Positions 3,453 through 17,018 of a stretch of DNA of 24,000 nucleotides are shown in pieces. The notes beneath the pieces are model-generated. The model made no database searches. It worked only from the letters and a program-made list of their open reading frames with translations, and was not told the DNA's origin. Made by a program: the position numbers and the translations under genes. The stretch is from Pseudomonadota bacterium (GTDB lineage: Bacteria > Desulfobacterota > Desulfobacteria > Desulfobacterales > Desulfobacteraceae), in NCBI GenBank assembly GCA_043806875.1, contig JAZDGN010000049.1:185254-209253 (forward strand). Reading direction: 5' to 3'. How positions within the stretch are numbered: position 1 is the stretch's first letter; each line of letters starts with the position of its first letter.

Positions 3453-3595
3453 GGCTTTTCCTTTCATTGCTTTGGGCCTGCCTTTGCTGGGATCGGTTCT
3501 GGTCAGCGGCAGTAGTATATTCCTACCAGTATCAATCGGGATTGTAAAGGGGCAGCAGTATGCACAGGTTAAGTTACTGCAGATTAAGTTGATTG

Positions 3596-3624: not shown

Positions 3625-3699
3625 AGGGGTTTTTAATATATAAGACTATTTCCGGGAAACCGGGACTGTTGCCCATTTTGGCTATAAAGGCGGGCTGTC

Positions 3700-4275: not shown

Positions 4276-6111
4276 ATGTTTGCAAATTTTCTTTATCTTC
4301 TGGTTGCCCTGATCCTGTACACCACCTGCCAGCACCAGGGGCCAAAAGCCGTGCTGGCGGACAATGCACTGCTCTGGGCCCTGTTCATGGTTGTGGCGTT
4401 CACCGGGGTGTGCCGTCTTACGTTCCGGCGTCTGGAGAGGCTGAACTCCCTGGATCGGTCCGGAATGGACCTCCACATGGACAGGGCATTGTCCCGGCTG
4501 TCTGTTCTTGCCCTGGTAATGTTTGCGGTTGATCTCTATGGTTTGCGGCTGAAGCTCCTGTTTGCCCATATCCGCCTGTTCCAGATCTTTCCCACGGTTG
4601 AAGCCCTGGTGTTTCTGGGGTTATTCATCACCCACCTGGTGATCATCTGGGTGTTTGCCTGGAATTTTCAGAACAAGGCCTTCATGGGGCCCCTGTCCAG
4701 GAAGAGCTTTGTTATCTCCAATATTTCCTTTTCCCTGCCGGCTCTGCTACCCTGGTTTTTTCTCTCTCTCATGGCCGACATCATCCAGATTCTTCCCTTT
4801 GAGGGGCCCAAGAATTTTTTGTCCACACCCCAGGGGGAGATCTGCTATGTTGTCTCGTTCCTGTTTGCCATGGCAGCCTTCGGGCCTTACCTGATCCAGA
4901 AACTGTGGCGGTGCAAGCCCCTTGAACCCGGAGAAACCCGTGACCGCATCCAGGATCTGTGCCGCAGGGCAGGGCTCAAGGTAGCTGATATCCTCAGGTG
5001 GGAGCTGTTCGGCGGGTCCATGATCACAGCCGGTGTCATGGGGATCGTGGCACGGTTCAGGTATATCCTGGTCACCCCGGCCCTGATCTCCCTGCTGCGT
5101 CCCGATGAGATCGATGCGGTCATCGCCCATGAGATCGGCCATATCCAGAAAAAGCACATCCACTTTTACCTGTTCTTTTTTGCCGGGTACATCGCCTGCA
5201 TCTACGCCCTGTTTGACCCCCTGCTGCTGCTCCTTTACTACTCCAAACCCCTGTTCGATCTGGTGGCTGTCACCGGCATGGAACACGAGACGGCCTACAC
5301 CCTGTTTATCAGCCTGATTCTGATCAGCCTGTTCCTGGTGTACTTCCGTTTTGTGTTCGGTTTCTACATGCGCAATTTTGAGCGCCAGGCAGATCTCCAT
5401 GTGTATACCCTCCTTGGCAATGCTTCGTCCCTGGTGGACACCTTTTTCAAGATCGTCCGGTTCAGCCGTCAGTCCTCGGATAAACCCAACTGGCACCACT
5501 ACAGCATCAGCGAGCGGATAGGGTTTTTGAGGCTCTGCGAAGCCGATCCATCACATATCCTGCGCCATAACAAAAAGATCAGGGCCATGATCCTGGGGTA
5601 TATCGCTGTTATGGCCGGAATCTCAGTGATTGGCTATTCCCTGAATTTCGGGGCCGGGAAACAGGCTTTTGACCGGTTCGTCACCGGCATGGTCATCGCG
5701 CGGCAGGTCCAGACGGACCCGGGCAATACGGAAATGATGACACTGATAGGGGATTACTACTATGATGCCAAGGCCTTCGGCAATGCAGTGGACGCCTATG
5801 AAAAGGTGCTTGACTCTGATCCGGGCAATCTCCATGCCCTGAACAATCTTGCCTGGACGTTTGCCACCTGCGAGGACGAGACGGTCCGCGATTTCCCCAG
5901 GGCCCTGGCCCTGGCGGAAATGGCCCTGGCCCTGGACAGGGCGGCTTATATTTTAGATACCTATGCCGAAGCCTGTTTTGTGAACGGCCAGTACGACAAG
6001 TCCCTGGAGGCAGCCAGGGAAGCGCTGGCAAAGGCAACGGACCGCCTGGAGTATTACCGGGAACAGGTCAGGCGGTTTGAGGCCGGTGCCGGCTTGCGGG
6101 TGCGGGGCTGA
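4276..6111 (+). CDS. Polytopic M48 family zinc metalloprotease with C-terminal TPR repeats
   Basis: ATG 4276 immediately follows the NUDIX stop (TAG 4273-4275). Several TM segments flank the HEIGH motif (AHEIGHIQKKH). TPR-like repeats sit at the C-terminus (YYYDAKAFGNAVDAYEKVLDSDPGNLHALNNLAW). Confidence 0.75.
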   Translation: MFANFLYLLVALILYTTCQHQGPKAVLADNALLWALFMVVAFTGVCRLTFRRLERLNSLDRSGMDLHMDRALSRLSVLALVMFAVDLYGLRLKLLFAHIRLFQIFPTVEALVFLGLFITHLVIIWVFAWNFQNKAFMGPLSRKSFVISNISFSLPALLPWFFLSLMADIIQILPFEGPKNFLSTPQGEICYVVSFLFAMAAFGPYLIQKLWRCKPLEPGETRDRIQDLCRRAGLKVADILRWELFGGSMITAGVMGIVARFRYILVTPALISLLRPDEIDAVIAHEIGHIQKKHIHFYLFFFAGYIACIYALFDPLLLLLYYSKPLFDLVAVTGMEHETAYTLFISLILISLFLVYFRFVFGFYMRNFERQADLHVYTLLGNASSLVDTFFKIVRFSRQSSDKPNWHHYSISERIGFLRLCEADPSHILRHNKKIRAMILGYIAVMAGISVIGYSLNFGAGKQAFDRFVTGMVIARQVQTDPGNTEMMTLIGDYYYDAKAFGNAVDAYEKVLDSDPGNLHALNNLAWTFATCEDETVRDFPRALALAEMALALDRAAYILDTYAEACFVNGQYDKSLEAAREALAKATDRLEYYREQVRRFEAGAGLRVRG

Positions 6112-6178: not shown

Positions 6179-6796
6179 TTATTGGATCAGGTCTGCGCCG
6201 AGGTCATAGGCCTTGAGGTTAAGGGACACCTTGTCCCTGGTAAATGTCTCGGCCAGGGTCTGTTCAAAGACCTGACGGTCCAGGGGGAGGTCATGGGTGG
6301 CAGCCAGGGCCCCGGCCATGATGATGTTGGCAAAAATGGGGTCCCCCATGTCCGAGGCCAGGGCAGTGGCGTCCAGGAACCAGGCCCTGGCTGCAAGTTC
6401 CCGGACCCAGGCCTGGATTTTTTCCATGGACGGGTAGTCCAGGCGTCCCGAGATGACGCCTATGGGGTGTGTCGGCCGGGTGTTGCAGATGACCTTGACC
6501 CCGGGGTTGCCATAGGCGGTCAGGACCCTGATGGTCTCGATGGGCTCCAGGGAGACAACCATGTGTGCCATTCCCTGGGGGATCTGGGGCGACAGGGCTT
6601 TCCCGGACGAGATCCGCACATGGCTCATGACCGAGCCGCCCCTCTGGGAGGCTCCGAAGGTTTCCCCGATGGTCACGCCATAGCCCTTTTTCGAGAGCAT
6701 GGATCCGATGATGCGGGAGGAGATGACATTGCCCTGGCCTCCCACGCCAGTGATGATCAGGTTGTAGGGATCATGAATCAAATCAGGGGATTTCAT
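6179..6796 (-). CDS. iorB: Indolepyruvate:ferredoxin oxidoreductase subunit beta
   Basis: The conserved start is MKSPD...YNLIITGVGGQGN, and ATG 6796 overlaps the iorA stop (ATGA 6793-6796). The domain is the gamma type of 2-oxoacid oxidoreductases. Confidence 0.8.
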   Translation of the reverse strand: MKSPDLIHDPYNLIITGVGGQGNVISSRIIGSMLSKKGYGVTIGETFGASQRGGSVMSHVRISSGKALSPQIPQGMAHMVVSLEPIETIRVLTAYGNPGVKVICNTRPTHPIGVISGRLDYPSMEKIQAWVRELAARAWFLDATALASDMGDPIFANIIMAGALAATHDLPLDRQVFEQTLAETFTRDKVSLNLKAYDLGADLIQ

Positions 6797-8724
6797 GAAG
6801 GGCGTTCCTTTCTGGTAATGGCGCGGTTGGGGCAGACCGAGGTGCAGACCCCGCATCCGGCGCAGATGTACTCGTTGATCCGGGCCTGGTTCAACGCTTT
6901 ATCCCAGATCAGGCCCGGACAGGCAAACACCCGGGTGCAGAGCCTGTTGCAGCCGCAGTCCCCGCCCAGGCAAAGTTCCGGATCAACAGCCATGTCAAAG
7001 GCCTTGTGTCTTTTTCTTTCAGGGCTCAGGGCACAGGCCTGTCGCAGTACCAGGACCTTGACCCCATGGTCGGCCTGGATCAGTTCAAGGAGGGCTGCCT
7101 GCGTGGCCTCCAGGTCAAAGGGGTCGCAGACAACGGTTTCAGCGCCCATTGCCTGGCAGATGGACGCGATGTCCAGGCCTGGGACCAAATTCCCGCGCGC
7201 GTCCACCGGGAGTCCGGGGTGGGGCTGAAACCCGGTCATGGCAGTTCCGCTGTTGTCCAGGATCACCATGGTAAACTGTGAACCGGTGTGGATGGCATTG
7301 ACCAGGGGGGGCATACCGGAGTGGAAAAAGGTGCTGTCACCGCATACGGCCAGGACCGGTTGATCCATGCCAAAGGCTCCGAGCTTCCCGAATCCGCTGG
7401 CAAGGCCTGACCCGGAGCCCATGGAGTGAAGGGTTTTCAGGGTGAAATACCCGCCATGGAGCATGCCCATGGAATAGCAGCCGATGTCTCCGCAGGTGAA
7501 ACCCTTCCGGTTGTCAAGCTGCAGGACCGTGTTGATGGTAAAGTAGGAGGCCCTGTGGGGACATCCGGGACAGAAGGAGATCTCCCGGTCAGGGATCCGG
7601 GTTGCCATGGCAGAGGTCCTGGTCTTGTACTCATCGGTCACTGCATCATGGGCCAGACCGAACAGTCCGGCCAGAGCCTTGATGACGAGATCGGGGTTGA
7701 GTTCATTCATCACGGGGATGTGGCCGCTGTGTTTCCCGAAAAAGATGTTCCCCTGACCGCCGGTCCCAGACTCGGCTGCCAGGATTTTCACCCCTTCCTC
7801 CACAAAGGGCTGGACCTCTTCCACGAACAGGACCCTGGGGGTCAGGGCAAGGCGTTCCTGGATGAGTTTTTGGGGCAGGGGCCAGGTGGTGCCCAGTTTG
7901 AGGATGCCGACCCTGGTCGAAAGGCCCAGTATCTGAACCGCCTCCCGGCTGTACAGGCTGCAGATGGAACTGGTGATGATGAGCAGTTCCGGCCGCTCGG
8001 GTCCTTCATAGGTGTTAAAGGGCGATGTTTCGAACAGGGCCTGGGCCCGGGCAAGGCGCTGGTGCTGAAGATTTCTTTTGTATCCCACAGGCGGGGTCAT
8101 GACCAGACCGTCTGCGGGGTCCAGCATGTTGCCGTCGCAGTTGAACACTGCCTTGCCCTTGGGAGGTAGCATGTCGCCCAGAACAACCGGACCGCTGGCA
8201 TGGGAGAGACGGGTCACGGTACGCACCATGACCAGGATGCCCAGGGTTTCGGACAGTTCAAAGGCCCACCGTGTCATGTCCTTGGCTTCCTGAAAATCAC
8301 CGGGTTCCAGCATGGGGATCTCCATGAGCCTTGCGTAGTAACGGGTTTCCCCCTCATTGATGCTGGACAGGGCGCCGGGGTCATCGGCCGCGACCAGGAC
8401 CATGCCGCCCCGGATCCCGGACAGGGCCAGATGCATGAGAAAATCAGCGGCAACGTTCACGCCGGGCTGTTTCATGACAGCCAGGGCGCGCAGGCCCGCA
8501 AAGGACCCGGCAGCCGCAACTTCCAGGGCGACCTTTTCATTGACCGACCACTCTGAGTAAATGTCGGGGCATGCCTTGGACAGACGTTCGATGATCTCCG
8601 ACGACGGGGTTCCCGGATACCCGGCTGCAACGCTGATGCCGGCTTCCACCGCTCCCCTGACAATGGCCTCATTGCCCATCATCAGGTGGCGGGCTCCGGG
8701 GCTGTTCTGATTAAAAATGGACAT
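6793..8724 (-). CDS. iorA: Indolepyruvate:ferredoxin oxidoreductase subunit alpha
   Basis: ATG 8724 (MSIFNQ) has a GAGGAAA RBS. TPP-enzyme motifs are present (GYPGTPSSEI, GDSTFFHSG). The C-terminus has 2x[4Fe-4S] motifs (CAGCGVCTSVCP). Size is about 640 aa. Confidence 0.85.
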   Translation of the reverse strand: MSIFNQNSPGARHLMMGNEAIVRGAVEAGISVAAGYPGTPSSEIIERLSKACPDIYSEWSVNEKVALEVAAAGSFAGLRALAVMKQPGVNVAADFLMHLALSGIRGGMVLVAADDPGALSSINEGETRYYARLMEIPMLEPGDFQEAKDMTRWAFELSETLGILVMVRTVTRLSHASGPVVLGDMLPPKGKAVFNCDGNMLDPADGLVMTPPVGYKRNLQHQRLARAQALFETSPFNTYEGPERPELLIITSSICSLYSREAVQILGLSTRVGILKLGTTWPLPQKLIQERLALTPRVLFVEEVQPFVEEGVKILAAESGTGGQGNIFFGKHSGHIPVMNELNPDLVIKALAGLFGLAHDAVTDEYKTRTSAMATRIPDREISFCPGCPHRASYFTINTVLQLDNRKGFTCGDIGCYSMGMLHGGYFTLKTLHSMGSGSGLASGFGKLGAFGMDQPVLAVCGDSTFFHSGMPPLVNAIHTGSQFTMVILDNSGTAMTGFQPHPGLPVDARGNLVPGLDIASICQAMGAETVVCDPFDLEATQAALLELIQADHGVKVLVLRQACALSPERKRHKAFDMAVDPELCLGGDCGCNRLCTRVFACPGLIWDKALNQARINEYICAGCGVCTSVCPNRAITRKERPS

Positions 8725-8775
8725 GGTTTCCTCTTCGGCTCTCAATATTCCAATGCAGTACCGTTGCCATGACGA

Positions 8776-9885
8776 TTATCGCAATCCCATGATGGTCTGT
8801 TTTTCCTGTTTCAGGGCAGGTTCCTGGAAGGCCTTTGATGTCATTCCCAAAGTCTGGGCCTTGTCACTGGCCCTCTGTCTCTTGTTGGCTGCTGCCTTGG
8901 AAAGGCCGTCCAGGCACGCCTGGGCAAAAGGTTCAACCTCGAGCATTCCGTTGATCACAGCCTGGTCCACAAGGCGCTGGCCAAGGGGTGTTCTGACGAT
9001 CAGGGTGTTCCAGCCAGTTCTGCCTTCCAGTGCCCCGACGGACAGGTCTGTAAACTCCCCGGTCATGTCCGGGCAGATGGCGCATCCACCGGGCACGAGC
9101 CGGCGCAAGTCGTCCAGGGGGAAGGTCATCACTGAATCGGTAAGATTCAGCACAAAGGTTTCGGCAGGCGGCGGCGGGATATCCATGGACCGGATTGATT
9201 GGGTGTCCACCCCTTTGGCAGCCATATACCGTGCAAAACGGGCCGCGTCCACAGCCCAGGTGCAGAAGAGTCCGATTCTCAGGGACGTGATGTCGCGGAA
9301 TCCGGTTTTCTGCAGCGGATTCATGCGCAGTTGGGCAAGGGCTGTCATCTGGCATGGGGTGCCCACCACGGCCAGTTTGCCCAGAGGACCGTCCATGGCT
9401 GCGTTCAGGGCTGCCAGTGTAGGCGTGGCCATGTACTTGGATGACGCGCAATGGAGGATGCCCGCCTCCGTGTCCGTGATCAGTGGGGCTGGGGTCAGGC
9501 CGTGCCTGTCCGTGAGCAGGGCCCCATGGATGAGGCCCAGACGCAGTGCCTGGATCACCAGGGAGGATACGGTGCCGCCGTTCTGGAACTGTCCGTCCGG
9601 AGCCTTTTTCCCCCTGCGGGCTGAAAGGATGGACAGGCATGAACCCAGGGGTGACTGAGGCTGGGGTTCCTTGAAGCAGTGCCTGGACAGCTCATCCCTG
9701 TCCACACCGATATGGGGGCAATGGGCATAGCACCGTCCCTGGGATCTGTCGCAGGCAAAGACCTGGATCACAGACCCGTTGTGGGACCTTAAATAGGGGC
9801 ACATGTCAGCGCAGGCTCCGCAGGATGTGCACAGATTGGCATCCCGGATGCGCTGGATAAGTTCCAGAGGGCCGAATATCTGCAT
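8776..9885 (-). CDS. FrhB/FdhB family (F420 hydrogenase/dehydrogenase beta-like) FeS flavoprotein
   Basis: AGGAG lies 8 nt before ATG 9885. The N-terminus has the ferredoxin motif CTSCGACADMCP plus CYAHCPH. VVGTPCQMTALAQL is typical of FrhB/FdhB C-terminal domains. The gene sits 51 nt upstream of iorA on the same strand. Confidence 0.7.
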   Translation of the reverse strand: MQIFGPLELIQRIRDANLCTSCGACADMCPYLRSHNGSVIQVFACDRSQGRCYAHCPHIGVDRDELSRHCFKEPQPQSPLGSCLSILSARRGKKAPDGQFQNGGTVSSLVIQALRLGLIHGALLTDRHGLTPAPLITDTEAGILHCASSKYMATPTLAALNAAMDGPLGKLAVVGTPCQMTALAQLRMNPLQKTGFRDITSLRIGLFCTWAVDAARFARYMAAKGVDTQSIRSMDIPPPPAETFVLNLTDSVMTFPLDDLRRLVPGGCAICPDMTGEFTDLSVGALEGRTGWNTLIVRTPLGQRLVDQAVINGMLEVEPFAQACLDGLSKAAANKRQRASDKAQTLGMTSKAFQEPALKQEKQTIMGLR

Positions 9886-10215: not shown

Positions 10216-10293
10216 GTTTTTGCTTGTGTAAAACTCTTTCAGGCAAAAATATGAATGATGAACGCAGGAGAAATTCTGCATTGCGGAGACTGT

Positions 10294-10794
10294 ATGTCCC
10301 GGTTTTTCATGTCAGAGTTCGTGTATGCAGCAGTCCGGTGCGGACTCGCCATGGTATTTCTCTATTCCGGTGTGATGAAGCTGGCTGATCTTGGGGCCTT
10401 TGCGTCGGTGATCGAGGCCTATGGCATTGTCCCCTGGGAATTCAAGTCTTTGTCAGCCCTGGTGATCTCCCTGGCAGAGGTCTTTGCCGGGGCAGGGCTT
10501 CTTTTGGATGTTCGGGGAAGCCTGACCGCTGTAGCCGTGATGCTGGTTGTATTCATGGCAGTCCTGGGTTTAGGGATCCACATGGGGTATGACATTGACT
10601 GCGGCTGTTTCGGTGAGGATGACCCGGTGGGCAAAGCCATGCACGGGCTTGGCCGTGCCTTGATCCGCGATTTGGTTTTTACGGCAGGAGTTTTGTACTG
10701 TTATGTCTGGCGCTATCTGCATTCCCATGAACCGGCAGGCCTGGCAACCTATTTTTATCACCTGGTAAATGGAAAAAAGAGGAGAAGTTTATGA
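10294..10794 (+). CDS. MauE/DoxX family redox-associated membrane protein
   Basis: The ORF opens at 10255; ATG 10294 is preferred because GGAGA lies 4 nt upstream. Four TM helices are present, with LYSGVMKL and DIDCGCFGE motifs. The stop overlaps the next start (ATGA 10791-10794). Confidence 0.7.
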   Translation: MSRFFMSEFVYAAVRCGLAMVFLYSGVMKLADLGAFASVIEAYGIVPWEFKSLSALVISLAEVFAGAGLLLDVRGSLTAVAVMLVVFMAVLGLGIHMGYDIDCGCFGEDDPVGKAMHGLGRALIRDLVFTAGVLYCYVWRYLHSHEPAGLATYFYHLVNGKKRRSL

Positions 10795-11336
10795 AGAAAT
10801 CCGCAATGTTTTCAATGGTCGCAGGTCTGGCAGCAGCGGTTCTGGCGCTTGTTTTCACGGCAGGCCAGTCCCACGCGCTGCTCGATGGCAAATTTGAAAA
10901 AGAAGTAGAGGTTGAAAAAAGTGCTGTAAAACTGGTAAAAGAAGTTCAGCGGGGCGGTTATGATATTGTTGACACTGCCCAGCTCAAAGGGTGGATCGAT
11001 GAAAAAAAGGACATGATCATTGTCGATACCATGCCCTATGCTGACAGTTATGTTAAGGGGCATGTGCCGGGAGCAAAACAGTTCCTGTTTCCCATCCCGG
11101 ACATGACAACCTGGGATGCCAAGGAGACTGACCAGAAGTCCGTTGACGATTATAAGGCCCTTCTGGGACCGGATCTGAATAAGCTCATTGTGGTCTATTG
11201 CGGGTTTGTCAAATGCACCCGCAGCCACAACGGTGCTGCGTGGGCCAAAAAACTGGGATATACCAATGTTTACAGATACCCCGGCGGAGTATTCGCCTGG
11301 AAGGGTGCCGGATTTGAAGAGGAGACCGTCAAGTAA
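10791..11336 (+). CDS. Exported rhodanese-domain protein
   Basis: AAGAGGAGAAG RBS. Sec-type signal peptide (AGQSHA/LL). Rhodanese motifs IIVDTMP, YVKGHVPGA and IVVYCGFVKCTRSHNGAAWAKKLGYTNVYRYPGGVFAW. Confidence 0.8.
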   Translation: MKKSAMFSMVAGLAAAVLALVFTAGQSHALLDGKFEKEVEVEKSAVKLVKEVQRGGYDIVDTAQLKGWIDEKKDMIIVDTMPYADSYVKGHVPGAKQFLFPIPDMTTWDAKETDQKSVDDYKALLGPDLNKLIVVYCGFVKCTRSHNGAAWAKKLGYTNVYRYPGGVFAWKGAGFEEETVK

Positions 11337-11979
11337 CGACCCTGAACTCATTGTTTTTGTGAGAGCCCCTGAACAGGGGAAGGTAAAGACCAGGCTTGCC
11401 CGTCATCTGGGTGAGACCCTGGTCCTTGCCGTTTACAGGGGCCTGGTGGAACAGATCCTGGCGGCCGTATACCAGTCCGGAATAAGGACGGTGATCTGCT
11501 ATTGTCCGGACGATAAGGGAGCCATGGTGAGTGATTGGCTGGGGACGGATCCTGAGTATCGTCCCCAGTCAGGGGACGACCTGGGGGATCGCATGTTCCA
11601 GGCCCTGGACCATGCCTTCTCCTCCGGGTGTTCCAGGGCTTTGCTCATGGGTTCGGACATACCGGATGTGACGGCGGCCCACCTCCTGGAGGCGCTTTCC
11701 ATTCTGGATCAATGCGACATTGTGCTGGGACCTGCCCTGGATGGCGGTTACTGGCTGGTGGGTCTCAACAGGAATGGGCTTGACCGCAGTCTGTTTCACA
11801 ATGTTGACTGGGGAACGGACAGGGTCCTGTCTGCAACAACCAAAACTGCGGCCGCCCTGGGGCTGACTGTGGGTTTTGCTGCAACCTTGAGGGATGTGGA
11901 TACCCTGGAGGATCTCATGCTGTCACCTGCCGGTTCAGGACTTCTTGAACGGCTGAAAGATAGGGTGCGGGGTACCTGA
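11314..11979 (+). CDS. DUF2064 / TIGR04282-type transferase (family now named arsenosugar biosynthesis glycosyltransferase)
   Basis: Hallmark motifs LIVFVRAPEQGKVKTRL, LMGSDIPD, ALDGGYWLVGL and VDWGTDRVLSATT. No ATG exists after the rhodanese stop. TTG 11314 was chosen because GGAAGGG lies about 9 nt upstream; alternatives are GTG 11305, ATG 11266 and GTG 11359. Confidence 0.7.
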   Translation: MKRRPSSNDPELIVFVRAPEQGKVKTRLARHLGETLVLAVYRGLVEQILAAVYQSGIRTVICYCPDDKGAMVSDWLGTDPEYRPQSGDDLGDRMFQALDHAFSSGCSRALLMGSDIPDVTAAHLLEALSILDQCDIVLGPALDGGYWLVGLNRNGLDRSLFHNVDWGTDRVLSATTKTAAALGLTVGFAATLRDVDTLEDLMLSPAGSGLLERLKDRVRGT

Positions 11980-12019
11980 ACCCCTCGAAAGGCTGAAAAC
12001 AGGATCGCACCAAAAGCTG

Positions 12020-12058
12020 CCATGGCCGTGTCCGGTTTTATGCCGGGTCCGGCCATGG
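12020..12058. terminator. GC-rich hairpin between convergent genes (likely terminator, clearest for the minus-strand gene)
   Basis: A perfect 9-bp stem, CCATGGCCG (12020-12028) with CGGCCATGG (12050-12058), is extended by inner CCGG/CCGG pairs. On the minus strand it is followed by GCAGCTTTTG. Confidence 0.55.
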
Positions 12059-12087
12059 ATGCTTCCGGGGTCAGGGGAATTTCGAAA

Positions 12088-12696
12088 TCAGGGCATGGCG
12101 GCAAGTTTGTCATAATCCACTTTTTTGGCATAGGCGGTCAGGTCTTCCTTGGTGACACCGTTGCCTTCAATGGAGACAAAAAACCTGTTTGCCACAACAA
12201 TTTTGATATTGCCATCCCTGTCGTTTTCATTGTAGGTGACGATGGCTTTCTGTTTACCGACCTTTTCAAGTTTGCCTCCCTCGGAGGCTGCAAACATGGG
12301 GTTGGAAAACATCATCATCACGCCCTGCATCAGGGGCGAATCCGTGAGGATCTGGATGGTCACCTGGCTGGAATCTTTGGTATAGGTTCTTTCTGCGGAT
12401 ACGCCGCCGCCGAACATGGCGGCTCCGGCTGCGGTGGAGTTGGACGGTTCTGCTGTCCACCCGCTCAGGGGCGCAGGCAAATAGGCCTCCAGGCCCTGGG
12501 CTTTTGTCTGCATCATGAGCTGGGTGGCATAGTTCAGGCTCTGTATGGCTGCGGAAACGTCTCCCTTTTTGTAGTTTTCCAGACCTTCGTTGATGGAATC
12601 GGTGATGTCATCCGCAGATGCACTCAGGGCAGATCCGAGAACAATGATTCCCAGGATGGCGAACATCACTGTCATACGTTTAATCAGATGTTTCAT
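12088..12696 (-). CDS. Secreted protein of unknown function (Met-rich, Cys-free)
   Basis: AAGGAGAA RBS. Signal peptide MKHLIKRMTVMFAILGIIVLGSALSASA/DD. Composition is normal, unlike the antisense ORF 12022-12810. No family recognised. Confidence 0.7.
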   Translation of the reverse strand: MKHLIKRMTVMFAILGIIVLGSALSASADDITDSINEGLENYKKGDVSAAIQSLNYATQLMMQTKAQGLEAYLPAPLSGWTAEPSNSTAAGAAMFGGGVSAERTYTKDSSQVTIQILTDSPLMQGVMMMFSNPMFAASEGGKLEKVGKQKAIVTYNENDRDGNIKIVVANRFFVSIEGNGVTKEDLTAYAKKVDYDKLAAMP

Positions 12697-12781
12697 GGTC
12701 GTTTTCTCCTTAAAGGGTTTATCTTTTCATGTGGTTTGTTATTGTGCTTGCGGCAGGGGTGCTGCATTGTTTTCCCCGGAA

Positions 12782-12811
12782 TTTATATCAGATTTCAAAT
12801 CACGGTGTAAA
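12782..12811 (-). promoter_or_regulatory. Candidate sigma70 promoter (extended -10) for the secreted-protein gene
   Basis: On the minus strand: TTTACA (12811-12806), 18 nt, TATAAA (12787-12782) preceded by TGA. It lies about 85 nt upstream of ATG 12696. Confidence 0.4.
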
Positions 12812-12870
12812 GGGAAACATGGTGTCTCCCGGTAAGAAGCCTTGGGATCGTTTCCAGGGCAGGACCAGTT

Positions 12871-13572
12871 TTAATAGTACCGGGCCAGACGCTCCGGGGG
12901 AATGCCCAGGAAAAACAGGCTCACCAGAGCCCAGTTTCGCAGTGTCGTGCACACGATACCCTGGGACTCCCACCGTCTGGCTGACGTGGACACGGTATGC
13001 CTGAAAATCAGAGGTTTTTTTCTGGTTTTTTTGAGTTTTCCCATCAAGGCCACATCTTCCATGATGGGAATGTCCGGAAACCCGCCCACGGCCTCAAATA
13101 CCTCCCGGCCCATGAACATGGCCTGGTCACCGTAGGGGATCCCTGTAAGCCTGGAGCGGAGCGAGATGACAGCCTCAATGATCCTGTATATGGGGCGCCG
13201 GCAGTTGATATTGAGGTCAAAGGCGCCGAAAAGCCAGTCACCCCGGGACTGGAAAGCGGTGTGGATCAGATCAAGTCCGGTCTGAGTGATGCGGGTGTCG
13301 GCATGGAGGAAAAGGAAGATGTTTCCACAGGCTGTCCTGGCTCCGGCATTCATCTGGGGCCCCCGGCCCCTTAGAGCCTTGAGCAGGAGAATCCTGGAAT
13401 CCATTGCTGCCTCTGATTTTAGGCAATCCAGGGTGCTGGCCTGCGCTTCCCCGTCAACTACGATGATTTCCATCCCTCCGGGAAAGGCCAGGCTCAGAAG
13501 ATGGTCTAAAGCCGTGCGGATGATTTTTTGTTCCTTGAAAACAGGAATTATGATAGATAGTCTGGACGTCAT
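12871..13572 (-). CDS. GT2-fold TIGR04283-type transferase (family now named arsenosugar biosynthesis glycosyltransferase)
   Basis: Motifs LSIIIPVFKE, IIVVDG, GRGPQMNAGARTACGNIFLFLHADT, GAFDLNI, IPYGDQAMFMGREVFEAVGGFPDIPIMEDVALMGKLKK and STSARRWESQGI...IPPERLARYY. Start is ATG 13572, or GTG 13590. Confidence 0.8.
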   Translation of the reverse strand: MTSRLSIIIPVFKEQKIIRTALDHLLSLAFPGGMEIIVVDGEAQASTLDCLKSEAAMDSRILLLKALRGRGPQMNAGARTACGNIFLFLHADTRITQTGLDLIHTAFQSRGDWLFGAFDLNINCRRPIYRIIEAVISLRSRLTGIPYGDQAMFMGREVFEAVGGFPDIPIMEDVALMGKLKKTRKKPLIFRHTVSTSARRWESQGIVCTTLRNWALVSLFFLGIPPERLARYY

Positions 13573-13608
13573 GGGAAAATGAATTAACACACCTATAGGC
13601 TTTTTTGT

Positions 13609-16600
13609 ATGATTATTTCAGGTTTGGAAGACTGGGAACGTGTTTCATGGGATGGACTTGTCCTGTACGTAAGACCGGAGGCGCCGGACTGGTTTGTTCC
13701 ATCGGAAAAAGGGGACGCCATTCTCCGGAAATTGAGGGCAGGTCAGCCATGGCAGGATGAAACCCTTACCGGACTGGACAGGGTTAAGGCGCGGCAGTTC
13801 CTGTCCATCCTGCCGGAGACGGTTGTATCTCAACCCTATAAAGGACGGGGCAGGTGCTTAACCCTTACGGGACTTACGGAATTCTGGTTCCATGTCACGG
13901 ACCGGTGCAACCTGGCCTGCAGGCACTGCCTGTTTTCCTGCAATGGGACCGGGGCTGTCATGGATTTTCACCTGTTCAGGAGTGTGGTGGACCAGGTCCA
14001 TGACCTGGGTGCAAGGACACTCTACTTCACCGGGGGCGAGCCCCTGGTTCATCCACGGATCCGGGCCATGTGCCGTTATGTCCTTGATAAATCACCGGAT
14101 ACCCACCTGGTAATGCTGACCAACGGGTTCGCTATCCCGGGATTTGAACCGTTCATCAGGAGCCTTGACCTTTCAAGGATCCATTTCCAGATCAGCGTTG
14201 ACGGGGATGGCCCCCTTCATGATCAGGTCAGGGGCAGAGGCACCCATGCCGTACTCATGGAAGCCATTAACGTCCTGTCGGCCCTGGGGGCTGATATTAC
14301 CCTGGCCATGACCGTCCACCAGGGAAATCTCGGGTTCATGTCCGGATTGATCGACCTGGCCGGTCAGTTTTCCATAACCAATGTCCACTTCCTGTGGCTT
14401 TTTGTCACCGGCAATGCAACCAGTGACGGGTTTGCCGGACCACGCGAGATTTTTCCTTTTCTGGAAAAAGCCCATTACCATGCCCGCAGAGCCGGCATTG
14501 TCATTGACAACATCCAGGCCATGACCGAACAGGTGTTTTCCGTGCCCGGGACCCGGCACGACCTGTCCAATGCCGGGTGGGAATCCCTTGCCATGGCACC
14601 TGACGGATCCATCTATCCTACCCCGGCCCTGATCGGAAGGCCAGACGCCCTGTGCGGGAAGGCTGATTCGGGGATAGGGGCTGTATGGAGACACAGCCTG
14701 ATCCTTTCAAAAATCCGCAGCCTGTCTGTTGAAGGCGATGACAAGCTCCGGAACAATCCTTTGAAATTCATCACCGGGGGCTGCGACCTGGATCACTCCT
14801 TTTATGCAGGGGGCGAATTTACCGGTTATGATCCCTACCTTGAACTTTACGACCGTATTGCCCTGATGCTTATCAGGGAGCATGTGGACCGGCACAGGGA
14901 TGGTCTGGGTCGGGTCTGGCCCGGAGTCCTGGCCCGCATGGGCGACCGCCTGGAGAACTGTGACTACACCGGAAGCGGTGTTGTTTTCACCCATTCCAAT
15001 TGCGTGCTCTCCTTTTCCGGTGCCCGGAAAAAGGTAGAGGCCTTTTATGCCGGTGCAGCCCGTAACCCGGAAGCCGATGCCGCCATCCTGAACCCTGTGT
15101 GCTATCCCCCGGATCAGATCGCCCACATCCCGGACTATGCCCGGGTTCGATCCTTTGGGTGCGGAAGCCCGGTAATGGACGCTGCCGTCCAGGAGGGGGA
15201 GACTGTTGTCGATTTGGGCTCGGGCACAGGTGTCGAGTGTTTTATTGCCTCCAGGATCACAGGAAAAAGTGGCAGGGTCGTGGGCATCGATATGACCGAC
15301 ATTATGCTGGACCTGGCCACACGGGCATCACGGGATACAGCCAATACCCTGGGGTATGGGAACACGGTGTTTGTAAAGGGTTTTCTGGAGGATATCCCCC
15401 TGGAGTCGGGGTGTGCGGATGCCGTGATCTCCAATTGTGTCATCAACCTGACATCGGACAAACCCGGGACCCTGAATGAAATTTTCAGGATACTCAAACC
15501 CGGAGGCCGGCTGGTGGTTTCAGATGTGGTCACCGATTCCCGGCCTGGGCCAGGGATTCTCAATGATCCGGAACTCAGGGGGGAATGCATTGCCGGTGCC
15601 ATGGTCCTAAATCAGCTCATGGCACTTCTGGAGCAGACCGGGTTCGTGAATCTCAAGATTATCAAACGGTTTTTTTACAGGGAAGTCAAAAATCACCGGT
15701 TCTATTCCGTCACCTACCAGGGGAACAGACCCGGAGCGGAACAGGCCCTGAAATCTGTAATCTATCCCGGCCCCTTTGCCGCTGTTATGACCGATACCGG
15801 TGAAATTCTGGTCCGGGGCCAGGTCCTGGACCTTTGTGTATCCCATGCCCTGGAAACAGATCCATCGCTGTACATCCTGGATGCCCTGGGGAATGCTCTC
15901 GGGATGGAAGGCCAGAATACCTGTGCCTGCTATCTGCCCCCTGAAGACCAGGCGCCTGTTCGGGAGATTTCCGGACCGGTAAGGAGCCCGCTCCAGACCG
16001 CCGGGCCCGGAGATACCACGGCACAGGGCCTGGGAATCGCCAGAAGCATGACCGGATGCATGGTCTGTTCAGCTCCCCTGGTGTACACGGATGGGTTGGA
16101 AAAGGGGGTGTGCCATTACTGCCAGGCCCTGCTTCCGGTGGACGCCAGGTGCGTAAACGGCCATTTTGTGTGCAACCAGTGCCACTCCCGGGATGCTGTT
16201 AAGGTTGCGGAAACCATACTCACCTCCACCCGTGAAACCGACATGATCACCCTGATGAATATTGTCCGCAGCCATCCGGGGGTACCGCTCCACGGTCCGG
16301 AGCACCACTTCATTCTTCCCGGGGTTATCCTCGCGGCCTTTCGCAACAGCGGCGGTGCCCTGGACAATGACCGGATCCTGGCCGGTATCCAGCGGGGAAA
16401 GGCGGTTCCCGGGGGCGTGTGTGCCTTCTGGGGAACCTGCGGTGCCGTGACCGGTGCCGGTATTGCCCTGGGGATCATCCTGGAGTCCAGTCCCCTGAAA
16501 CCAAGACCGCGCAGGATCGTCCAGGAAATTACCGCAGCCATAATCAAAGAACTGGCAACCATCGAAGCCGCCCGGTGCTGTCAGCGGGAAACATGGACGG

Positions 16601-16728
16601 TCCTGAAAATGGTCGGCGACCTGTCCCTGAAAGTGCTTGGCGTTGAACTCAAGGCAGAAGGATCCGTGAGCTGCGCCCAGAAACATTTGAACAAGGAGTG
16701 TGCCCTGAAGCAATGTCCTTATTTCTGA
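13609..16728 (+). CDS. Three-module fusion: radical SAM (SPASM-like) + ArsM-type arsenite S-adenosylmethyltransferase + Cys-rich C-terminal domain
   Basis: Single uninterrupted 1039-aa ORF. ATG 13609 is the first possible start (in-frame TAA at 13585-13587). Radical SAM CNLACRHC at aa 100-107. ArsM motifs FGCGSP, DLGSGTGVEC, GIDMTDIMLDLA, VISNCVINL, FRILKPGGRLVVSDVVT and RGECIAGA. The C-terminus has CxxC zinc-ribbon-like pairs plus CAFWGTCGAVTGAG. Confidence 0.85.
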   Translation: MIISGLEDWERVSWDGLVLYVRPEAPDWFVPSEKGDAILRKLRAGQPWQDETLTGLDRVKARQFLSILPETVVSQPYKGRGRCLTLTGLTEFWFHVTDRCNLACRHCLFSCNGTGAVMDFHLFRSVVDQVHDLGARTLYFTGGEPLVHPRIRAMCRYVLDKSPDTHLVMLTNGFAIPGFEPFIRSLDLSRIHFQISVDGDGPLHDQVRGRGTHAVLMEAINVLSALGADITLAMTVHQGNLGFMSGLIDLAGQFSITNVHFLWLFVTGNATSDGFAGPREIFPFLEKAHYHARRAGIVIDNIQAMTEQVFSVPGTRHDLSNAGWESLAMAPDGSIYPTPALIGRPDALCGKADSGIGAVWRHSLILSKIRSLSVEGDDKLRNNPLKFITGGCDLDHSFYAGGEFTGYDPYLELYDRIALMLIREHVDRHRDGLGRVWPGVLARMGDRLENCDYTGSGVVFTHSNCVLSFSGARKKVEAFYAGAARNPEADAAILNPVCYPPDQIAHIPDYARVRSFGCGSPVMDAAVQEGETVVDLGSGTGVECFIASRITGKSGRVVGIDMTDIMLDLATRASRDTANTLGYGNTVFVKGFLEDIPLESGCADAVISNCVINLTSDKPGTLNEIFRILKPGGRLVVSDVVTDSRPGPGILNDPELRGECIAGAMVLNQLMALLEQTGFVNLKIIKRFFYREVKNHRFYSVTYQGNRPGAEQALKSVIYPGPFAAVMTDTGEILVRGQVLDLCVSHALETDPSLYILDALGNALGMEGQNTCACYLPPEDQAPVREISGPVRSPLQTAGPGDTTAQGLGIARSMTGCMVCSAPLVYTDGLEKGVCHYCQALLPVDARCVNGHFVCNQCHSRDAVKVAETILTSTRETDMITLMNIVRSHPGVPLHGPEHHFILPGVILAAFRNSGGALDNDRILAGIQRGKAVPGGVCAFWGTCGAVTGAGIALGIILESSPLKPRPRRIVQEITAAIIKELATIEAARCCQRETWTVLKMVGDLSLKVLGVELKAEGSVSCAQKHLNKECALKQCPYF
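13870..15018 (+). other. Radical SAM core plus degenerate SPASM/twitch-like extension (module 1 of the fusion)
   Basis: CxxxCxxC at nt 13906-13929. FTGGEPLV, MLTNG and ISVDG strands follow. The segment LAMAPDGSIYPTPALIG...FITGGCDLDH resembles a SPASM hairpin but has only four Cys (C349, C392, C451, C465). Boundaries are approximate. Confidence 0.6.
15031..15735 (+). other. ArsM-type methyltransferase module (module 2 of the fusion)
   Basis: Colinear with characterised ArsM as I recall it from R. palustris: LGCGNP / DLGSGGG / LDMTDEML / VISNCVINL / FRVLKPGGRFAVSDVVT / GCLAGAL. The three As(III)-ligand Cys contexts are conserved (C518, C610, C660). Boundaries are approximate. Confidence 0.8.
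16051..16728 (+). other. Cys-rich C-terminal module (zinc-ribbon-like CxxC pairs plus a C_GCAxxG_C_C-like/DUF5714-like helical domain)
   Basis: CMVC-x13-CHYC-x8-C-x5-CNQC, then HGPEHH, CAFWGTCGAVTGAG, ARCC, and C1022/C1031/C1036. The family name comes from memory of the motifs only. Confidence 0.5.
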
Positions 16729-16776: not shown

Positions 16777-16808
16777 GCCTGAAGTAGACTAAGGTGCAGC
16801 GTACTACT

Positions 16809-16905
16809 ACGGACTGGGGGAGTCGACGGATATCGACTGAGAGGAAACTGTTGAGTTTCGACCCCTGGAACCTGATCCAGATAATACTGGCGAAGGGAAG
16901 CCGGC
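16809..16905 (+). promoter_or_regulatory. TPP (THI-box) riboswitch aptamer
   Basis: CGGACUGGGGGAG...CUGAGAGG...ACCCCUGGAACCUGAUCCAGAUAAUACUGGCGAAGGGAAGCCG matches the conserved TPP aptamer core of the E. coli thiM type (GGGGUGC..CUGAGA..ACCC..ACCUGAUCUGGAUAAUGCCAGCG.AGGGAA). It lies directly upstream of thiamine salvage genes. Confidence 0.9.
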
Positions 16906-17018
16906 GATCACATTCTGTTGACACTGTTTCCCCGTTTTTAAGTCCTTTCAGGTTCCCCCGTACCGTCGCCTGCCTGTTAACAAGTACCCAAGATCAGACA
17001 TCAGGGTGACCAGGGACC

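What the first reader, a model, noticed from the sequence alone, without database searches (positions are those of the whole stretch)
10294..16728. Candidate anaerobic organoarsenical (arsenosugar-like) biosynthesis locus lacking canonical ArsS and ars resistance genes
Seen: within 6.4 kb lie a TIGR04282-type transferase, a TIGR04283-type GT2 transferase and the radical SAM-ArsM fusion. A MauE/exported-rhodanese pair and a secreted unknown protein are interleaved with them. Established: TIGR04282 and TIGR04283 were defined by co-occurrence with the radical SAM protein now called ArsS. Current annotation names them as arsenosugar biosynthesis transferases. Experimentally, arsenosugar synthesis (ArsM plus ArsS) has been shown in cyanobacteria. 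Inference: this locus contains every predicted catalytic class for an arsenosugar-type product but swaps ArsS for a different, fused radical SAM module. No arsR, arsB/acr3, arsC or arsA is present in the window. That suggests a dedicated biosynthetic role rather than detoxification. Organoarsenic natural-product synthesis in an anaerobe of this type would be new biology.
Basis: partly seen in the sequence, partly recalled or inferred. Interest (0 to 1): 0.8.

Follow-up and report, generated by a model that had tools for sequence, protein, structure and literature searches.

The report
Fused radical-SAM/arsenic-methylase gene cluster
A likely sulfate-reducer-type anaerobe carries one large gene that joins a radical-SAM enzyme, an arsenic methyltransferase and a cysteine-rich domain, next to two transferases otherwise tied to arsenic-sugar synthesis, so these anaerobes may make organic arsenic compounds by an undescribed route.

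Summary
Window 10255-16728 encodes MauE, an exported rhodanese, a TIGR04282 transferase, a secreted unknown protein, a TIGR04283 GT2 transferase and a 1039-aa fusion protein. The window has no ars resistance genes.

The fusion has four parts: an RRE-like domain, a radical SAM domain of SPASM lineage (not ArsS), an ArsM-fold methyltransferase that keeps the As(III)-binding cysteine triad, and DUF5714. It belongs to a conserved family found mainly in Desulfobacterota.

The link to the two transferases is real but not obligatory.
- They flank the fusion in 5 of 11 loci, in two separate clades with different gene orders.
- A Planctomycetota protein fuses the same radical SAM-ArsM module directly to TIGR04283.
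- Another protein fuses TIGR04282 to a SPASM radical SAM domain.

DUF5714 has its own arsenic links. It occurs fused to ArsC-like domains, and as a separate gene beside acr3-arsM.

Against the reading:
- None of the 11 fusion loci carries ars genes.
- The "arsenosugar" name of the transferases rests on gene association only.
- The radical SAM half descends from peptide maturases.
- The product is unknown.
- I could not test whether the genome lacks ArsS.

Verdict: a plausible, uncharacterised variant of ArsM/ArsS-type organoarsenical synthesis.

The parts
10255..10794 (+). MauE/DoxX-family membrane protein. Its stop overlaps the rhodanese start codon.
   Evidence: Pfam MauE 88.9 bits. Conserved with the rhodanese and TIGR04282 in L086 and L089.
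10791..11336 (+). Exported single-domain rhodanese with a signal peptide and a six-residue active-site loop, CTRSHNG.
   Evidence: Pfam Rhodanese 62.1 bits. Best NCBIfam hit is the rhodanese part of TsoB, 82.5 bits, below cut-off. 73-76% identical in L086 and L089.
11266..11979 (+). TIGR04282/DUF2064 transferase, with a CofC/MobA-like nucleotide-diphospho-sugar transferase fold. The start is ATG 11266 or TTG 11314; either overlaps the end of the rhodanese gene.
   Evidence: TIGR04282 191.4 bits against cut-off 134. PDB 3cgx E 3e-32. Sequence read.
12088..12696 (-). Secreted 202-aa protein of unknown family, downstream of the GT2 gene on the same strand.
   Evidence: No Pfam or NCBIfam family. 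56% identical orthologue in the same position in L086 only.
12871..13572 (-). TIGR04283 family-2 glycosyltransferase.
   Evidence: 226.6 bits against cut-off 182. NCBI protein P0121 is 233 aa.
13573..13608 (.). 36-bp divergent intergenic spacer between the GT2 gene and the fusion gene (37 bp in L086).
   Evidence: Sequence read. L086 gene table.
13609..13818 (+). Fusion residues 1-70: a derived PqqD/RRE-like domain (three strands, then helices).
   Evidence: AF2 secondary structure. hhalign 89.5%, E 2e-6, to the PqqD-bearing N-termini of distant homologues. StsB/AlbA models align from residue 11.
13876..14538 (+). Fusion residues 90-310: radical SAM core with invariant C100-x3-C104-x2-C107 and the GGE motif (T141-P145).
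   Evidence: Pfam Radical_SAM 63.1 bits. Invariant columns. PDB sequence hits PqqE and SkfB. Foldseek hits SkfB, PqqE, anSME and ChlB.
14566..14943 (+). Fusion residues 320-445: SPASM-like extension that has lost its auxiliary-cluster cysteines (YPT338 in place of PC).
   Evidence: Alignment to PqqE. Column counts T/S/A at residue 338. No Pfam SPASM hit here, although 18 of 63 homologues have one.
15085..15888 (+). Fusion residues 493-760: As(III) SAM-methyltransferase (ArsM) fold with invariant C518, C610 and C660.
   Evidence: PRK11873 205.8 bits, below cut-off 263. PDB 5evj E 1e-36, with the three cysteine motifs aligned. The Foldseek top 13 are all ArsM/AS3MT. Invariance in 23 homologues.
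16039..16728 (+). Fusion residues 811-1039: DUF5714. It has a zinc-ribbon-like CxxC...CxxC...C..H..C..C part, then a helical part with HGPEHH, GGxCxFWGxCGA and RCCQR motifs.
   Evidence: Pfam DUF5714 181 bits. MbdU 126.8 bits, below cut-off. Invariant Cys/His. AF2 model pLDDT 87.8 with no PDB fold match.

Best explanation
The locus encodes an anaerobic pathway that builds a carbon-arsenic compound, and the 1039-aa protein is its core enzyme.

Shown by the sequence and comparisons:
- The protein combines a catalytically intact radical SAM domain, an ArsM-fold methyltransferase that keeps the cysteine triad which binds As(III) in solved ArsM structures, and a Cys-rich DUF5714 domain.
- DUF5714 is linked elsewhere to ArsC-like and acr3-arsM contexts.
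- The enzyme family is genetically coupled to the TIGR04282 and TIGR04283 transferases.

Inferred mechanism:
1. As(III) is held on thiols. DUF5714 may act as the carrier, handing it to the ArsM triad.
2. The methyltransferase domain methylates it once or twice.
3. The radical SAM domain cleaves a second SAM and joins the resulting radical to arsenic. By analogy with ArsS this would be the 5'-deoxyadenosyl radical, giving a dimethylarsinoyl-adenosine-type nucleoside.
4. TIGR04282 (nucleotidyltransferase-like) and TIGR04283 (GT2) then tailor the ribose or aglycone.
5. The MauE-exported rhodanese pair, which is translationally coupled to TIGR04282, and the secreted protein are clade-specific accessories. 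They may carry out periplasmic sulfur transfer or handle an exported product.
For: - **Arsenic-binding methyltransferase.** The three As(III)-binding cysteines of ArsM (Cys72, 174 and 224 in CmArsM) align to C518, C610 and C660, which are invariant in 23 homologues. The 13 best PDB fold matches are all ArsM/AS3MT.
- **Intact radical SAM domain.** The CX3CX2C and GGE motifs are invariant.
- **A distinct, coupled family.** 95 representative proteins match the radical SAM domain at E<=1e-30. Of 63 examined, 46 carry the ArsM-like domain and 20 carry DUF5714. Reverse-order ArsM-radical SAM fusions also exist (P0412, P0434). In L010 the two parts are separate adjacent genes.
- **Link to the transferases.**
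  - Window-type arrangement: the window and L086, which is 61% identical.
  - Desulfobacter-type operon: fusion, DUF2064, DUF3047, GT2 in L005, L087 and L091. The two groups are separate clades.
  - 0 of 76 ArsM-only loci carry the transferases.
  - A natural radical SAM-ArsM-TIGR04283 fusion occurs in three Planctomycetota assemblies.
  - A TIGR04282-SPASM radical SAM fusion exists, P0507.
- **DUF5714 and arsenic.** It is fused to ArsC-like LMWP domains (P0315, P0326, P0335). It also lies 2.3 kb from acr3-arsM in L068.
- **Precedent.** ArsM and the radical SAM enzyme ArsS are co-transcribed neighbours. ArsS adds the 5'-deoxyadenosyl radical to a methylated arsenical (papers read).
Against: - None of the 11 fusion loci has an arsR, acr3, arsC or arsenic-responsive context.
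- Six of the 11 loci lack TIGR04282/3 within 10 kb.
- TIGR04282/3 also occur without the fusion and without any ArsS-like gene nearby (L089, L090, L093).
- The methyltransferase domain scores below NCBI's ArsM cut-off (205.8 against 263).
- The radical SAM half descends from RRE-dependent peptide maturases and keeps a conserved RRE-like domain. That points to a peptide or protein partner rather than a small molecule.
- The 'arsenosugar' label on TIGR04282/3 comes from association only. No experimental paper was found.
- No product, no expression data and no whole-genome context are available.
Confidence: 0.45

Rival explanations
1. The fusion is a self-contained anaerobic metalloid methylase. 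The substrate is As(III), or Sb, Se or Te. The radical SAM and DUF5714 domains support methylation, for example through an extra radical methyl transfer, reductive regeneration of the cysteine disulfides, or metalloid delivery. No adenosyl transfer occurs. The transferases beside it belong to a related but separable pathway.
For: - Six of 11 fusion loci have no TIGR04282/3 nearby.
- A MerA/Lpd-like flavoprotein disulfide reductase and a DedA/VTT protein are as frequent a neighbour as the transferases (L005, L087, L091, L088, L092). This fits thiol or disulfide recycling.
- The ArsM cysteine triad is conserved.
Against: - The triple radical SAM-ArsM-TIGR04283 fusion and the tight co-directional operon in the Desulfobacter clade (gaps of 0-20 bp) argue for one pathway.
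- No known ArsM needs a radical SAM partner to methylate.
- No efflux or regulator genes typical of detoxification are present.
Confidence: 0.2
2. The enzyme is a peptide- or protein-modifying (RiPP-like) or cofactor-maturing radical SAM/methyltransferase whose chemistry does not involve arsenic. On this view the ArsM-like cysteines bind another soft ligand or a metal cluster. TIGR04282/3 act in an arsenic-independent glycosylation or redox pathway in this lineage.
For: - The N-terminal domain is homologous to PqqD/RRE peptide-recognition domains.
- The closest characterised radical SAM relatives are sactisynthases, PqqE, SkfB and MftC.
- The methyltransferase is below the ArsM cut-off.
- Neighbours such as MsrA/B, DedA, a flavoprotein disulfide reductase and a fatty-acid hydroxylase suggest thiol, oxidative or lipid chemistry.
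Against: - There is no room for a precursor-peptide gene next to the fusion in the tightly packed Desulfobacter-type operons.
- The SPASM auxiliary-cluster cysteines typical of peptide maturases are lost.
- The exact As(III)-binding triad is invariant, and ArsM structures dominate the fold matches.
- DUF5714 has independent ArsC, ArsM and Acr3 links.
Confidence: 0.15
3. The MauE-rhodanese-TIGR04282/TIGR04283 set is a sulfur or selenium trafficking and glycosylation module. The fusion sits beside it only through shared regulation or genomic drift.
For: - MauE-rhodanese-TIGR04282 with a divergent GT2 gene occurs without the fusion in L089.
- The rhodanese resembles the rhodanese part of the selenoprotein TsoB.
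Against: - The same fusion family is linked to TIGR04282/3 in a second clade that lacks MauE and rhodanese.
- It is also physically fused to TIGR04283 in Planctomycetota.
- 0 of 76 ArsM-only loci carry the pair.
Confidence: 0.1

Closest known systems
ArsM + ArsS arsenosugar pathway of Synechocystis sp. PCC 6803 (ArsS = TIGR04167 radical SAM; Xue et al. 2019, as cited in the papers read)
   Same: - An As(III) SAM methyltransferase is genetically coupled to a radical SAM enzyme: co-transcribed there, fused here.
- The same two accessory transferase families, TIGR04282 and TIGR04283, are associated. JGI names them 'rSAM/selenodomain-associated transferase'.
- Both have a Cys-rich C-terminal module.
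   Different: - The radical SAM domain here is of SPASM/twitch lineage with an RRE-like N-domain. It has no DUF3641 domain and is not a TIGR04167 member.
- Everything is fused into one 1039-aa protein with DUF5714.
- The hosts are Desulfobacterota-type anaerobes and Planctomycetota, not phototrophs.
- No product is known.
ArsL + ArsM arsinothricin pathway (arsQML of Burkholderia gladioli; PMC8552651 and the bioRxiv papers listed)
   Same: - A radical SAM enzyme forms a C-As bond from SAM.
- An ArsM-type enzyme methylates the arsenic.
- The NCBIfam 'arsinothricin ArsM' model gives a partial hit of 148.8 bits.
   Different: - ArsL is a non-canonical radical SAM enzyme that makes a 3-amino-3-carboxypropyl radical.
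- That cluster sits in an ars operon with the ArsQ permease.
- The methyltransferase here is far below that model's cut-off (148.8 against 500).
Canonical ArsM (PRK11873/NF008823) in ars resistance operons
   Same: - The same fold and SAM-binding motif.
- The same three As(III)-binding cysteines.
   Different: - The score is below the curated cut-off (205.8 against 263).
- The domain is embedded between a radical SAM domain and DUF5714.
- No arsR, acr3 or arsC lies nearby in any of the 11 loci.
SPASM/twitch radical SAM peptide maturases (AlbA, SkfB, PqqE, MftC, StsB)
   Same: - The closest sequence and fold relatives of residues 1-445.
- An N-terminal RRE-like domain.
   Different: - The auxiliary-cluster cysteines are lost.
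- No adjacent precursor peptide gene.
- Fused to ArsM.
DUF5714 / MbdU 'metal-binding double selenoprotein' (NF045648) / C_GCAxxG_C_C proteins
   Same: - The C-terminal 230 residues match DUF5714 (181 bits) and the first half of MbdU (126.8 bits).
- The invariant CC pair probably corresponds to the 'CU' motif that the review table gives for MbdU. The positional match was not aligned here.
   Different: - This is a Cys form, not a Sec form.
- It is below the MbdU cut-off of 600.
- No function is known for any member, and the fold has no match in the PDB.

Membership tests
TIGR04282 family (named 'arsenosugar biosynthesis glycosyltransferase' by NCBI) | Whole-protein HMM score above the curated cut-off of 134 bits | tested here: met
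   191.4 bits over the full model, positions 1-189. DUF2064 113.7 bits. PDB 3cgx E 3e-32.
TIGR04283 family (named 'arsenosugar biosynthesis glycosyltransferase' by NCBI) | Whole-protein HMM score above the curated cut-off of 182 bits | tested here: met
   226.6 bits over model positions 1-221. The NCBI record carries this name.
TIGR04282/TIGR04283 pair | A catalytic role in arsenosugar synthesis | not testable with these tools
   The name rests on gene association. No paper in the library connects these families experimentally to arsenosugars.
ArsM, arsenite S-adenosylmethionine methyltransferase | NCBIfam PRK11873 score at or above 263 bits | tested here: not met
   205.8 bits. True stand-alone ArsMs in L010 and L068 score 333 and 355 bits.
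ArsM, arsenite S-adenosylmethionine methyltransferase | Conserved As(III)-binding cysteines (Cys72, Cys174 and Cys224 of CmArsM) and the SAM-binding motif | tested here: met
   GCGSP (C518), SNCVINL (C610) and GEC (C660) align to the ArsM structures 5evj and 4kw7 and are invariant in 23 homologues. DLGSGTG is present. A candidate fourth cysteine, C498, is present in 18 of 23; C451 and C465 are invariant.
ArsM, arsenite S-adenosylmethionine methyltransferase | ArsM three-domain fold | tested here: met
   The Foldseek top 13 PDB hits are all ArsM/AS3MT, E about 1e-18, with 264-332 aligned columns.
ArsM, arsenite S-adenosylmethionine methyltransferase | Arsenic methylation activity | not testable with these tools
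   Needs an enzyme assay.
ArsS (TIGR04167 radical SAM/Cys-rich protein) | Family-level HMM match and a DUF3641 C-terminal domain | tested here: not met
   No DUF3641 hit in Pfam. TIGR04167 is not among the 25 best NCBIfam families, which are all of SPASM, twitch or MoaA type.
ArsS (TIGR04167 radical SAM/Cys-rich protein) | Canonical CX3CX2C cluster motif able to generate the 5'-deoxyadenosyl radical | tested here: met
   C100, C104 and C107 plus the GGE motif are invariant. This is a superfamily-level feature only.
SPASM-domain radical SAM peptide maturases | SPASM seven-cysteine auxiliary-cluster motif | tested here: not met
   No Pfam SPASM hit. The first SPASM cysteine is replaced by T/S/A338. 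Only C451 and C465 are conserved downstream.
SPASM-domain radical SAM peptide maturases | RRE/PqqD-like recognition domain and an adjacent precursor peptide gene | tested here: inconclusive
   The RRE-like N-domain is supported by hhalign at 89.5%, but Pfam PqqD is not detected in the window protein. Gene spacing leaves no room for a precursor ORF in L005, L087 and L091.
ars resistance operon | arsR, acr3/arsB, arsC or arsA in the neighbourhood | tested here: not met
   None in the window or in the 10 other fusion loci. L001 was checked only by an ORF list and tblastn with cluster proteins, not by a Pfam scan.

The most novel reading that the evidence does not exclude
Desulfobacterota, and some Planctomycetota, have a previously unrecognised trifunctional C-As bond-forming enzyme. 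It combines a SPASM-derived radical SAM domain, an ArsM domain and a DUF5714 arsenic-carrier domain, and replaces the separate ArsM and ArsS proteins. Together with TIGR04282/TIGR04283 it makes adenosyl- or ribosyl-type organoarsenicals (arsenosugars, their thio-analogues or arsenolipid head groups) in anoxic sediments. That would reveal a non-phototrophic, anaerobic source of complex organoarsenic.
Probability: 0.3. Interest if true: 0.8.

Novelty: new variant of a known kind. Interest (0 to 1): 0.62.

Why it matters
- **Source of complex organoarsenicals.** To my knowledge, arsenosugar synthesis genes (ArsM plus ArsS) have been shown experimentally only in cyanobacteria. The steps after the adenosyl-arsenical, and the roles of TIGR04282 and TIGR04283, are unknown. 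If this family does make C-As compounds, anaerobic sulfate-reducer-type bacteria would become a candidate source of complex organoarsenicals in sediments.
- **An experimental handle.** It would provide a single-polypeptide system for studying radical C-As bond formation coupled to methylation.
- **First functional context for three families.** It would place DUF5714 (no paper found, no solved fold) and the two transferase families in a pathway for the first time.
- **Ready-made tests.** The natural radical SAM-ArsM-TIGR04283 fusion, and cultured carriers such as Desulfobacter hydrogenophilus, Desulfoluna and Desulfosarcina ovata, make the hypothesis directly testable.

Tried and rejected
- **Metagenome scan with alignment A1.** It was driven by generic ArsM and radical SAM motifs and returned mostly stand-alone ArsM loci. 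I reused these as a background set. Only L006-L009 carried the fusion, and their flanks were too short to inform.
- **Literature searches.** Searches for DUF5714, for ArsS with arsenosugar and glycosyltransferase, for TIGR04282/3, and for ArsM/radical SAM fusions in anaerobes found nothing relevant.
- **First homologue search for the GT2.** It timed out and was repeated.
- **Is the secreted 202-aa protein a DUF3047 equivalent?** I found no detectable similarity, and it has no family.
- **Promoter and terminator scan.** Counts were near the shuffled expectation, so I did not use it beyond noting the tight divergent spacer.
- **Chance adjacency.** Rejected as the main explanation because of the two independent gene orders and the natural fusions.
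- **'ArsS homologue' for the radical SAM domain.** Rejected.
- **Not possible:** walking the 211-kb source contig to look for ArsS or ars operons, and any genome-wide co-occurrence profile.


Full report
**1. What is in the sequence**

| Coordinates | Strand | Gene | Key score |
|---|---|---|---|
| 10255-10794 | + | MauE/DoxX membrane protein | Pfam 88.9 bits |
| 10791-11336 | + | Rhodanese with signal peptide | Pfam 62.1 bits |
| about 11266-11979 | + | TIGR04282/DUF2064 | 191.4 bits, cut-off 134 |
| 12088-12696 | - | Secreted 202-aa protein | no family |
| 12871-13572 | - | TIGR04283 GT2 | 226.6 bits, cut-off 182 |
| 13609-16728 | + | 1039-aa fusion ORF | see section 2 |

- The MauE stop overlaps the rhodanese start. 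TIGR04282 starts inside the end of the rhodanese gene. These three genes are therefore one translationally coupled unit.
- The GT2 gene and the fusion gene diverge from a 36-bp spacer. The spacer is 37 bp in the syntenic locus L086.
- Upstream lie genes for a 2-oxoacid:ferredoxin oxidoreductase-type enzyme and an FrhB-like protein.
- Downstream, a TPP riboswitch at 16806-16915 (70.4 bits) opens a separate ABC/thiM/thiE/thiD operon. This fixes the right edge of the cluster.
- No arsR, acr3/arsB, arsC or arsA is present in the window.
- The fusion protein is identical to an NCBI MAG protein annotated only as 'DUF5714 domain-containing protein'. It lies on a 211,680-bp contig labelled Pseudomonadota. 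All named relatives are Desulfobacterota: Desulfoluna, Desulfobacter, Desulfosarcina, Desulfocapsaceae and Desulfurivibrionaceae.

**2. Anatomy of the fusion**

An AlphaFold2 model built from 23 homologues (pLDDT 77.5, pTM 0.67) shows four folded parts joined by disordered linkers at residues 451-496 and 766-810.

(a) *Residues 1-70.* Three strands followed by helices. Profile-profile comparison with the N-termini of distant homologues that carry Pfam PqqD hits gives 89.5% probability, E 2e-6. Sactisynthase models (StsB, AlbA) align from residue 11. This is a derived RRE-like domain, and R11, W28 and D36 are invariant in it.

(b) *Residues 90-310.* A radical SAM core with invariant C100, C104, C107 and the GGE motif. 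The best solved relatives are PqqE and SkfB by sequence, and SkfB, PqqE, anSME and ChlB by fold. No NCBIfam model comes near its cut-off. ArsS (TIGR04167) is not among the best 25 hits, and there is no DUF3641 domain.

(c) *Residues 320-445.* A SPASM-like extension whose auxiliary-cluster cysteines are gone. The position that holds a Cys in PqqE is T/S/A338 here. 18 of 63 more distant homologues still have a detectable SPASM domain.

(d) *Residues 493-760.* An ArsM fold.
- Best PDB sequence hits are ArsM structures (5evj at 1e-36, 4kw7 and 4fr0).
- The GCGSP, SNCVINL and GEC motifs align.
- C518, C610 and C660 are invariant in 23 homologues.
- The 13 best fold matches are all ArsM/AS3MT.
- The domain is nevertheless below NCBI's ArsM cut-off, 205.8 against 263.

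(e) *Residues 811-1039.* DUF5714 (181 bits), matching the first half of the 'metal-binding double selenoprotein' MbdU (126.8 bits, below its cut-off of 600).
- Invariant features are CxxC...CxxC, C..H..C..C, HGPEHH, GGxCxFWGxCGA and RCCQR.
- The domain models confidently on its own (pLDDT 87.8) but has no fold match in the PDB.

**3. Is the family real, and how is it built elsewhere?**

- Full-length homologues of 1010-1092 aa at 42-62% identity are numerous.
- An exhaustive HMMER search with the radical SAM half found 95 representative proteins at E<=1e-30.
- Of 63 examined, 46 carry the ArsM-like domain and 20 carry DUF5714.
- Reverse-order fusions (ArsM first, then SPASM radical SAM) exist: P0412 and P0434.
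- In L010 a SPASM radical SAM gene and a bona fide ArsM (333 bits) are adjacent separate genes.
- The coupling of this radical SAM lineage to ArsM is therefore recurrent, and it arose in more than one arrangement.

**4. Link to TIGR04282 and TIGR04283**

I examined eleven fusion loci with about 10-kb flanks.

- *Five carry both transferases.* These are the window, its 61%-identical syntenic relative L086 (MauE, rhodanese, DUF2064..., GT2, then the divergent fusion), and three Desulfobacter-type loci, L005, L087 and L091. The Desulfobacter-type loci have a co-directional, tightly packed operon: flavoprotein, fusion, DUF2064, DUF3047, GT2.
- *The two groups are separate clades,* separated by clades without the pair.
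- *Six loci lack the pair:* L001, L002, L004, L088, L092 and L094.
- *Background.* None of 76 ArsM-only metagenome loci (20 of them at least 10 kb) carries the pair. Fisher p is 0.003 per locus and 0.07 if only clades are counted.
- *Natural fusions give the stronger evidence.*
  - P0365, P0510 and P0511 come from three assemblies of Planctomycetota-type MAGs. They encode the same radical SAM family (40% identity), the ArsM-like domain and a complete TIGR04283 domain in a single reading frame.
  - P0507 and P0512 fuse a TIGR04282-like domain to a SPASM radical SAM domain.
- *The pair also stands apart from the fusion.* Three loci centred on close TIGR04283 homologues have neither the fusion nor an ArsS-like gene within 10 kb. 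L089 has MauE-rhodanese-DUF2064 with a divergent GT2 gene. L090 has only the pair. L093 has the pair with DedA, MsrA/B, a fatty-acid hydroxylase and a flavoprotein.

So the link is real but facultative at the level of gene order.

**5. Is arsenic the substrate?**

For:
- The ArsM cysteine triad and fold (section 2d).
- DUF5714 occurs fused to LMWP domains whose best matches are arsenate reductases, with a CVHNSCRS loop.
- DUF5714 also occurs as a separate gene 2.3 kb from an acr3-arsM pair in L068. There ACR3 scores 297.8 against 282.8, and ArsM 355 against 263.
- Precedents exist. arsM and arsS are co-transcribed in Synechocystis. ArsS adds the 5'-deoxyadenosyl radical to a methylated arsenical to give dimethylarsinoyl-adenosine. 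ArsL and ArsM together make arsinothricin (papers read; listed).

Against:
- No arsenic resistance or regulator gene lies in any of the 11 fusion loci.
- The recurrent neighbours are instead a DedA/VTT protein and a MerA/Lpd-like flavoprotein disulfide reductase. The latter scores 518 bits to PRK06370 and 397 to MerA, both below cut-off.
- The radical SAM half has a peptide-maturase ancestry with a retained RRE-like domain.
- The methyltransferase score is sub-threshold.
- Other soft metalloids (Sb, Se, Te) cannot be excluded.

**6. Most likely mechanism (inference)**

1. As(III) is bound by thiols. DUF5714 may act as a carrier domain on the flexible linker, and the RRE-like domain may be its docking site.
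2. The ArsM domain methylates it.
3. The radical SAM domain cleaves a further SAM and joins the radical to arsenic, by analogy with ArsS.
4. The nucleotidyltransferase-like TIGR04282 (PDB 3cgx and CofC relatives) and the GT2 TIGR04283 process the sugar or aglycone.
5. The neighbouring flavoprotein could re-reduce the cysteine disulfides formed during ArsM-type catalysis.
6. MauE, the exported rhodanese and the secreted protein occur only in the window's clade. They may add periplasmic sulfur chemistry or handle an exported product.

I put this at about 0.45. The rivals are a self-contained methylase (0.2), an arsenic-independent peptide or cofactor maturase (0.15), and a separate sulfur/selenium module placed beside the fusion (0.1).

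**7. Comparison with what is known, and novelty**

The system works like the ArsM/ArsS pair and shares its accessory transferases, but it fails the membership tests for ArsS, for canonical ArsM by score, and for SPASM maturases. NCBI already labels the two transferases 'arsenosugar biosynthesis', so that part is not new. What is new:
- The fused enzyme family, on which no paper was found.
- Its demonstrated genetic coupling to the transferases.
- The arsenic links of DUF5714.

I rate it a new variant of a known kind, with moderately high interest. It is directly testable in cultured carriers.

**8. Limits**

- No experiment, product or expression data are available.
- Whole-genome content, including a possible stand-alone ArsS, could not be examined.
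- The neighbourhood sample is small and phylogenetically clustered.
- The structure models are predictions.

Noticed in passing
window 16806-16915 (+): TPP riboswitch (RF00059, 70.4 bits against a gathering score of 54.3). It lies just upstream of an ABC transporter with an NMT1/THI5-like binding protein and thiM-thiE-thiD. It marks a separate thiamine-regulated operon immediately after the fusion gene. The same downstream genes follow the fusion in L086.
   Followed up: partly
P0365, P0510, P0511 (Planctomycetota-type MAG proteins; no window coordinates): A natural single-ORF fusion of the same radical SAM family, the ArsM-like methyltransferase and a complete TIGR04283 glycosyltransferase. 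It was seen in three assemblies.
   Followed up: yes
P0507, P0512; P0412, P0427, P0434: Other domain orders exist: a TIGR04282-like domain fused to a SPASM radical SAM domain, and ArsM at the N-terminus followed by a SPASM radical SAM domain. P0427 is inferred from its match position only and was not scanned against families.
   Followed up: partly
L005 7800-9947; L087 7805-9952; L091 8491-9954; L088 7729-9905; L092 13202-13903; L093 10703-11425 and 14241-15701: A DedA/VTT membrane domain, a MerA/Lpd-like flavoprotein disulfide reductase, or both (sometimes fused) lie next to the fusion. In L093 they lie next to TIGR04282/3 without the fusion. Neither is present in the window cluster. MsrA/MsrB also lie nearby in L005 and L093.
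   Followed up: partly
P0315, P0326, P0335: DUF5714 fused to a low-molecular-weight phosphatase domain whose best matches are arsenate reductases (69-79 bits, below cut-offs; CVHNSCRS loop).
   Followed up: partly
L068 8821-13627: A metagenome locus with ACR3, then ArsM, then a NosD-like protein on the opposite strand, then a stand-alone DUF5714 gene.
   Followed up: partly
window 16039-16728 (fusion residues 811-1039): The DUF5714 domain models confidently (pLDDT 87.8), but Foldseek finds no PDB structure with E below 0.6. It appears to be an unsolved fold with many invariant Cys and His residues.
   Followed up: partly
window 31-1137 (+); L087 21066-22280 (-): A pentapeptide-repeat/ion-channel fusion protein lies about 12 kb from the fusion gene in the window, and a similar one lies about 8 kb from it in a Desulfobacter locus. 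This may be coincidence.
   Followed up: no
window 2647-6111 compared with L086 1827-5291: The 4HBT thioesterase, small protein, NUDIX and M48 peptidase/TPR genes are syntenic with L086. In L086 they directly abut MauE. In the window, a block of 2-oxoacid:ferredoxin oxidoreductase-type and FrhB-like genes (6179-9885) is inserted between them.
   Followed up: no
window 13609-16728 (source record): The NCBI source MAG is labelled 'Pseudomonadota bacterium', but every named homologue of the fusion and of the GT2 is from Desulfobacterota. The taxon label looks outdated or wrong.
   Followed up: no
L005 13770-14528; L087 13839-14573; L091 13805-14545: A DUF3047 protein with a signal-like N-terminus sits between TIGR04282 and TIGR04283 in the Desulfobacter-type operon. 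It has no NCBIfam family and no counterpart in the window.
   Followed up: partly
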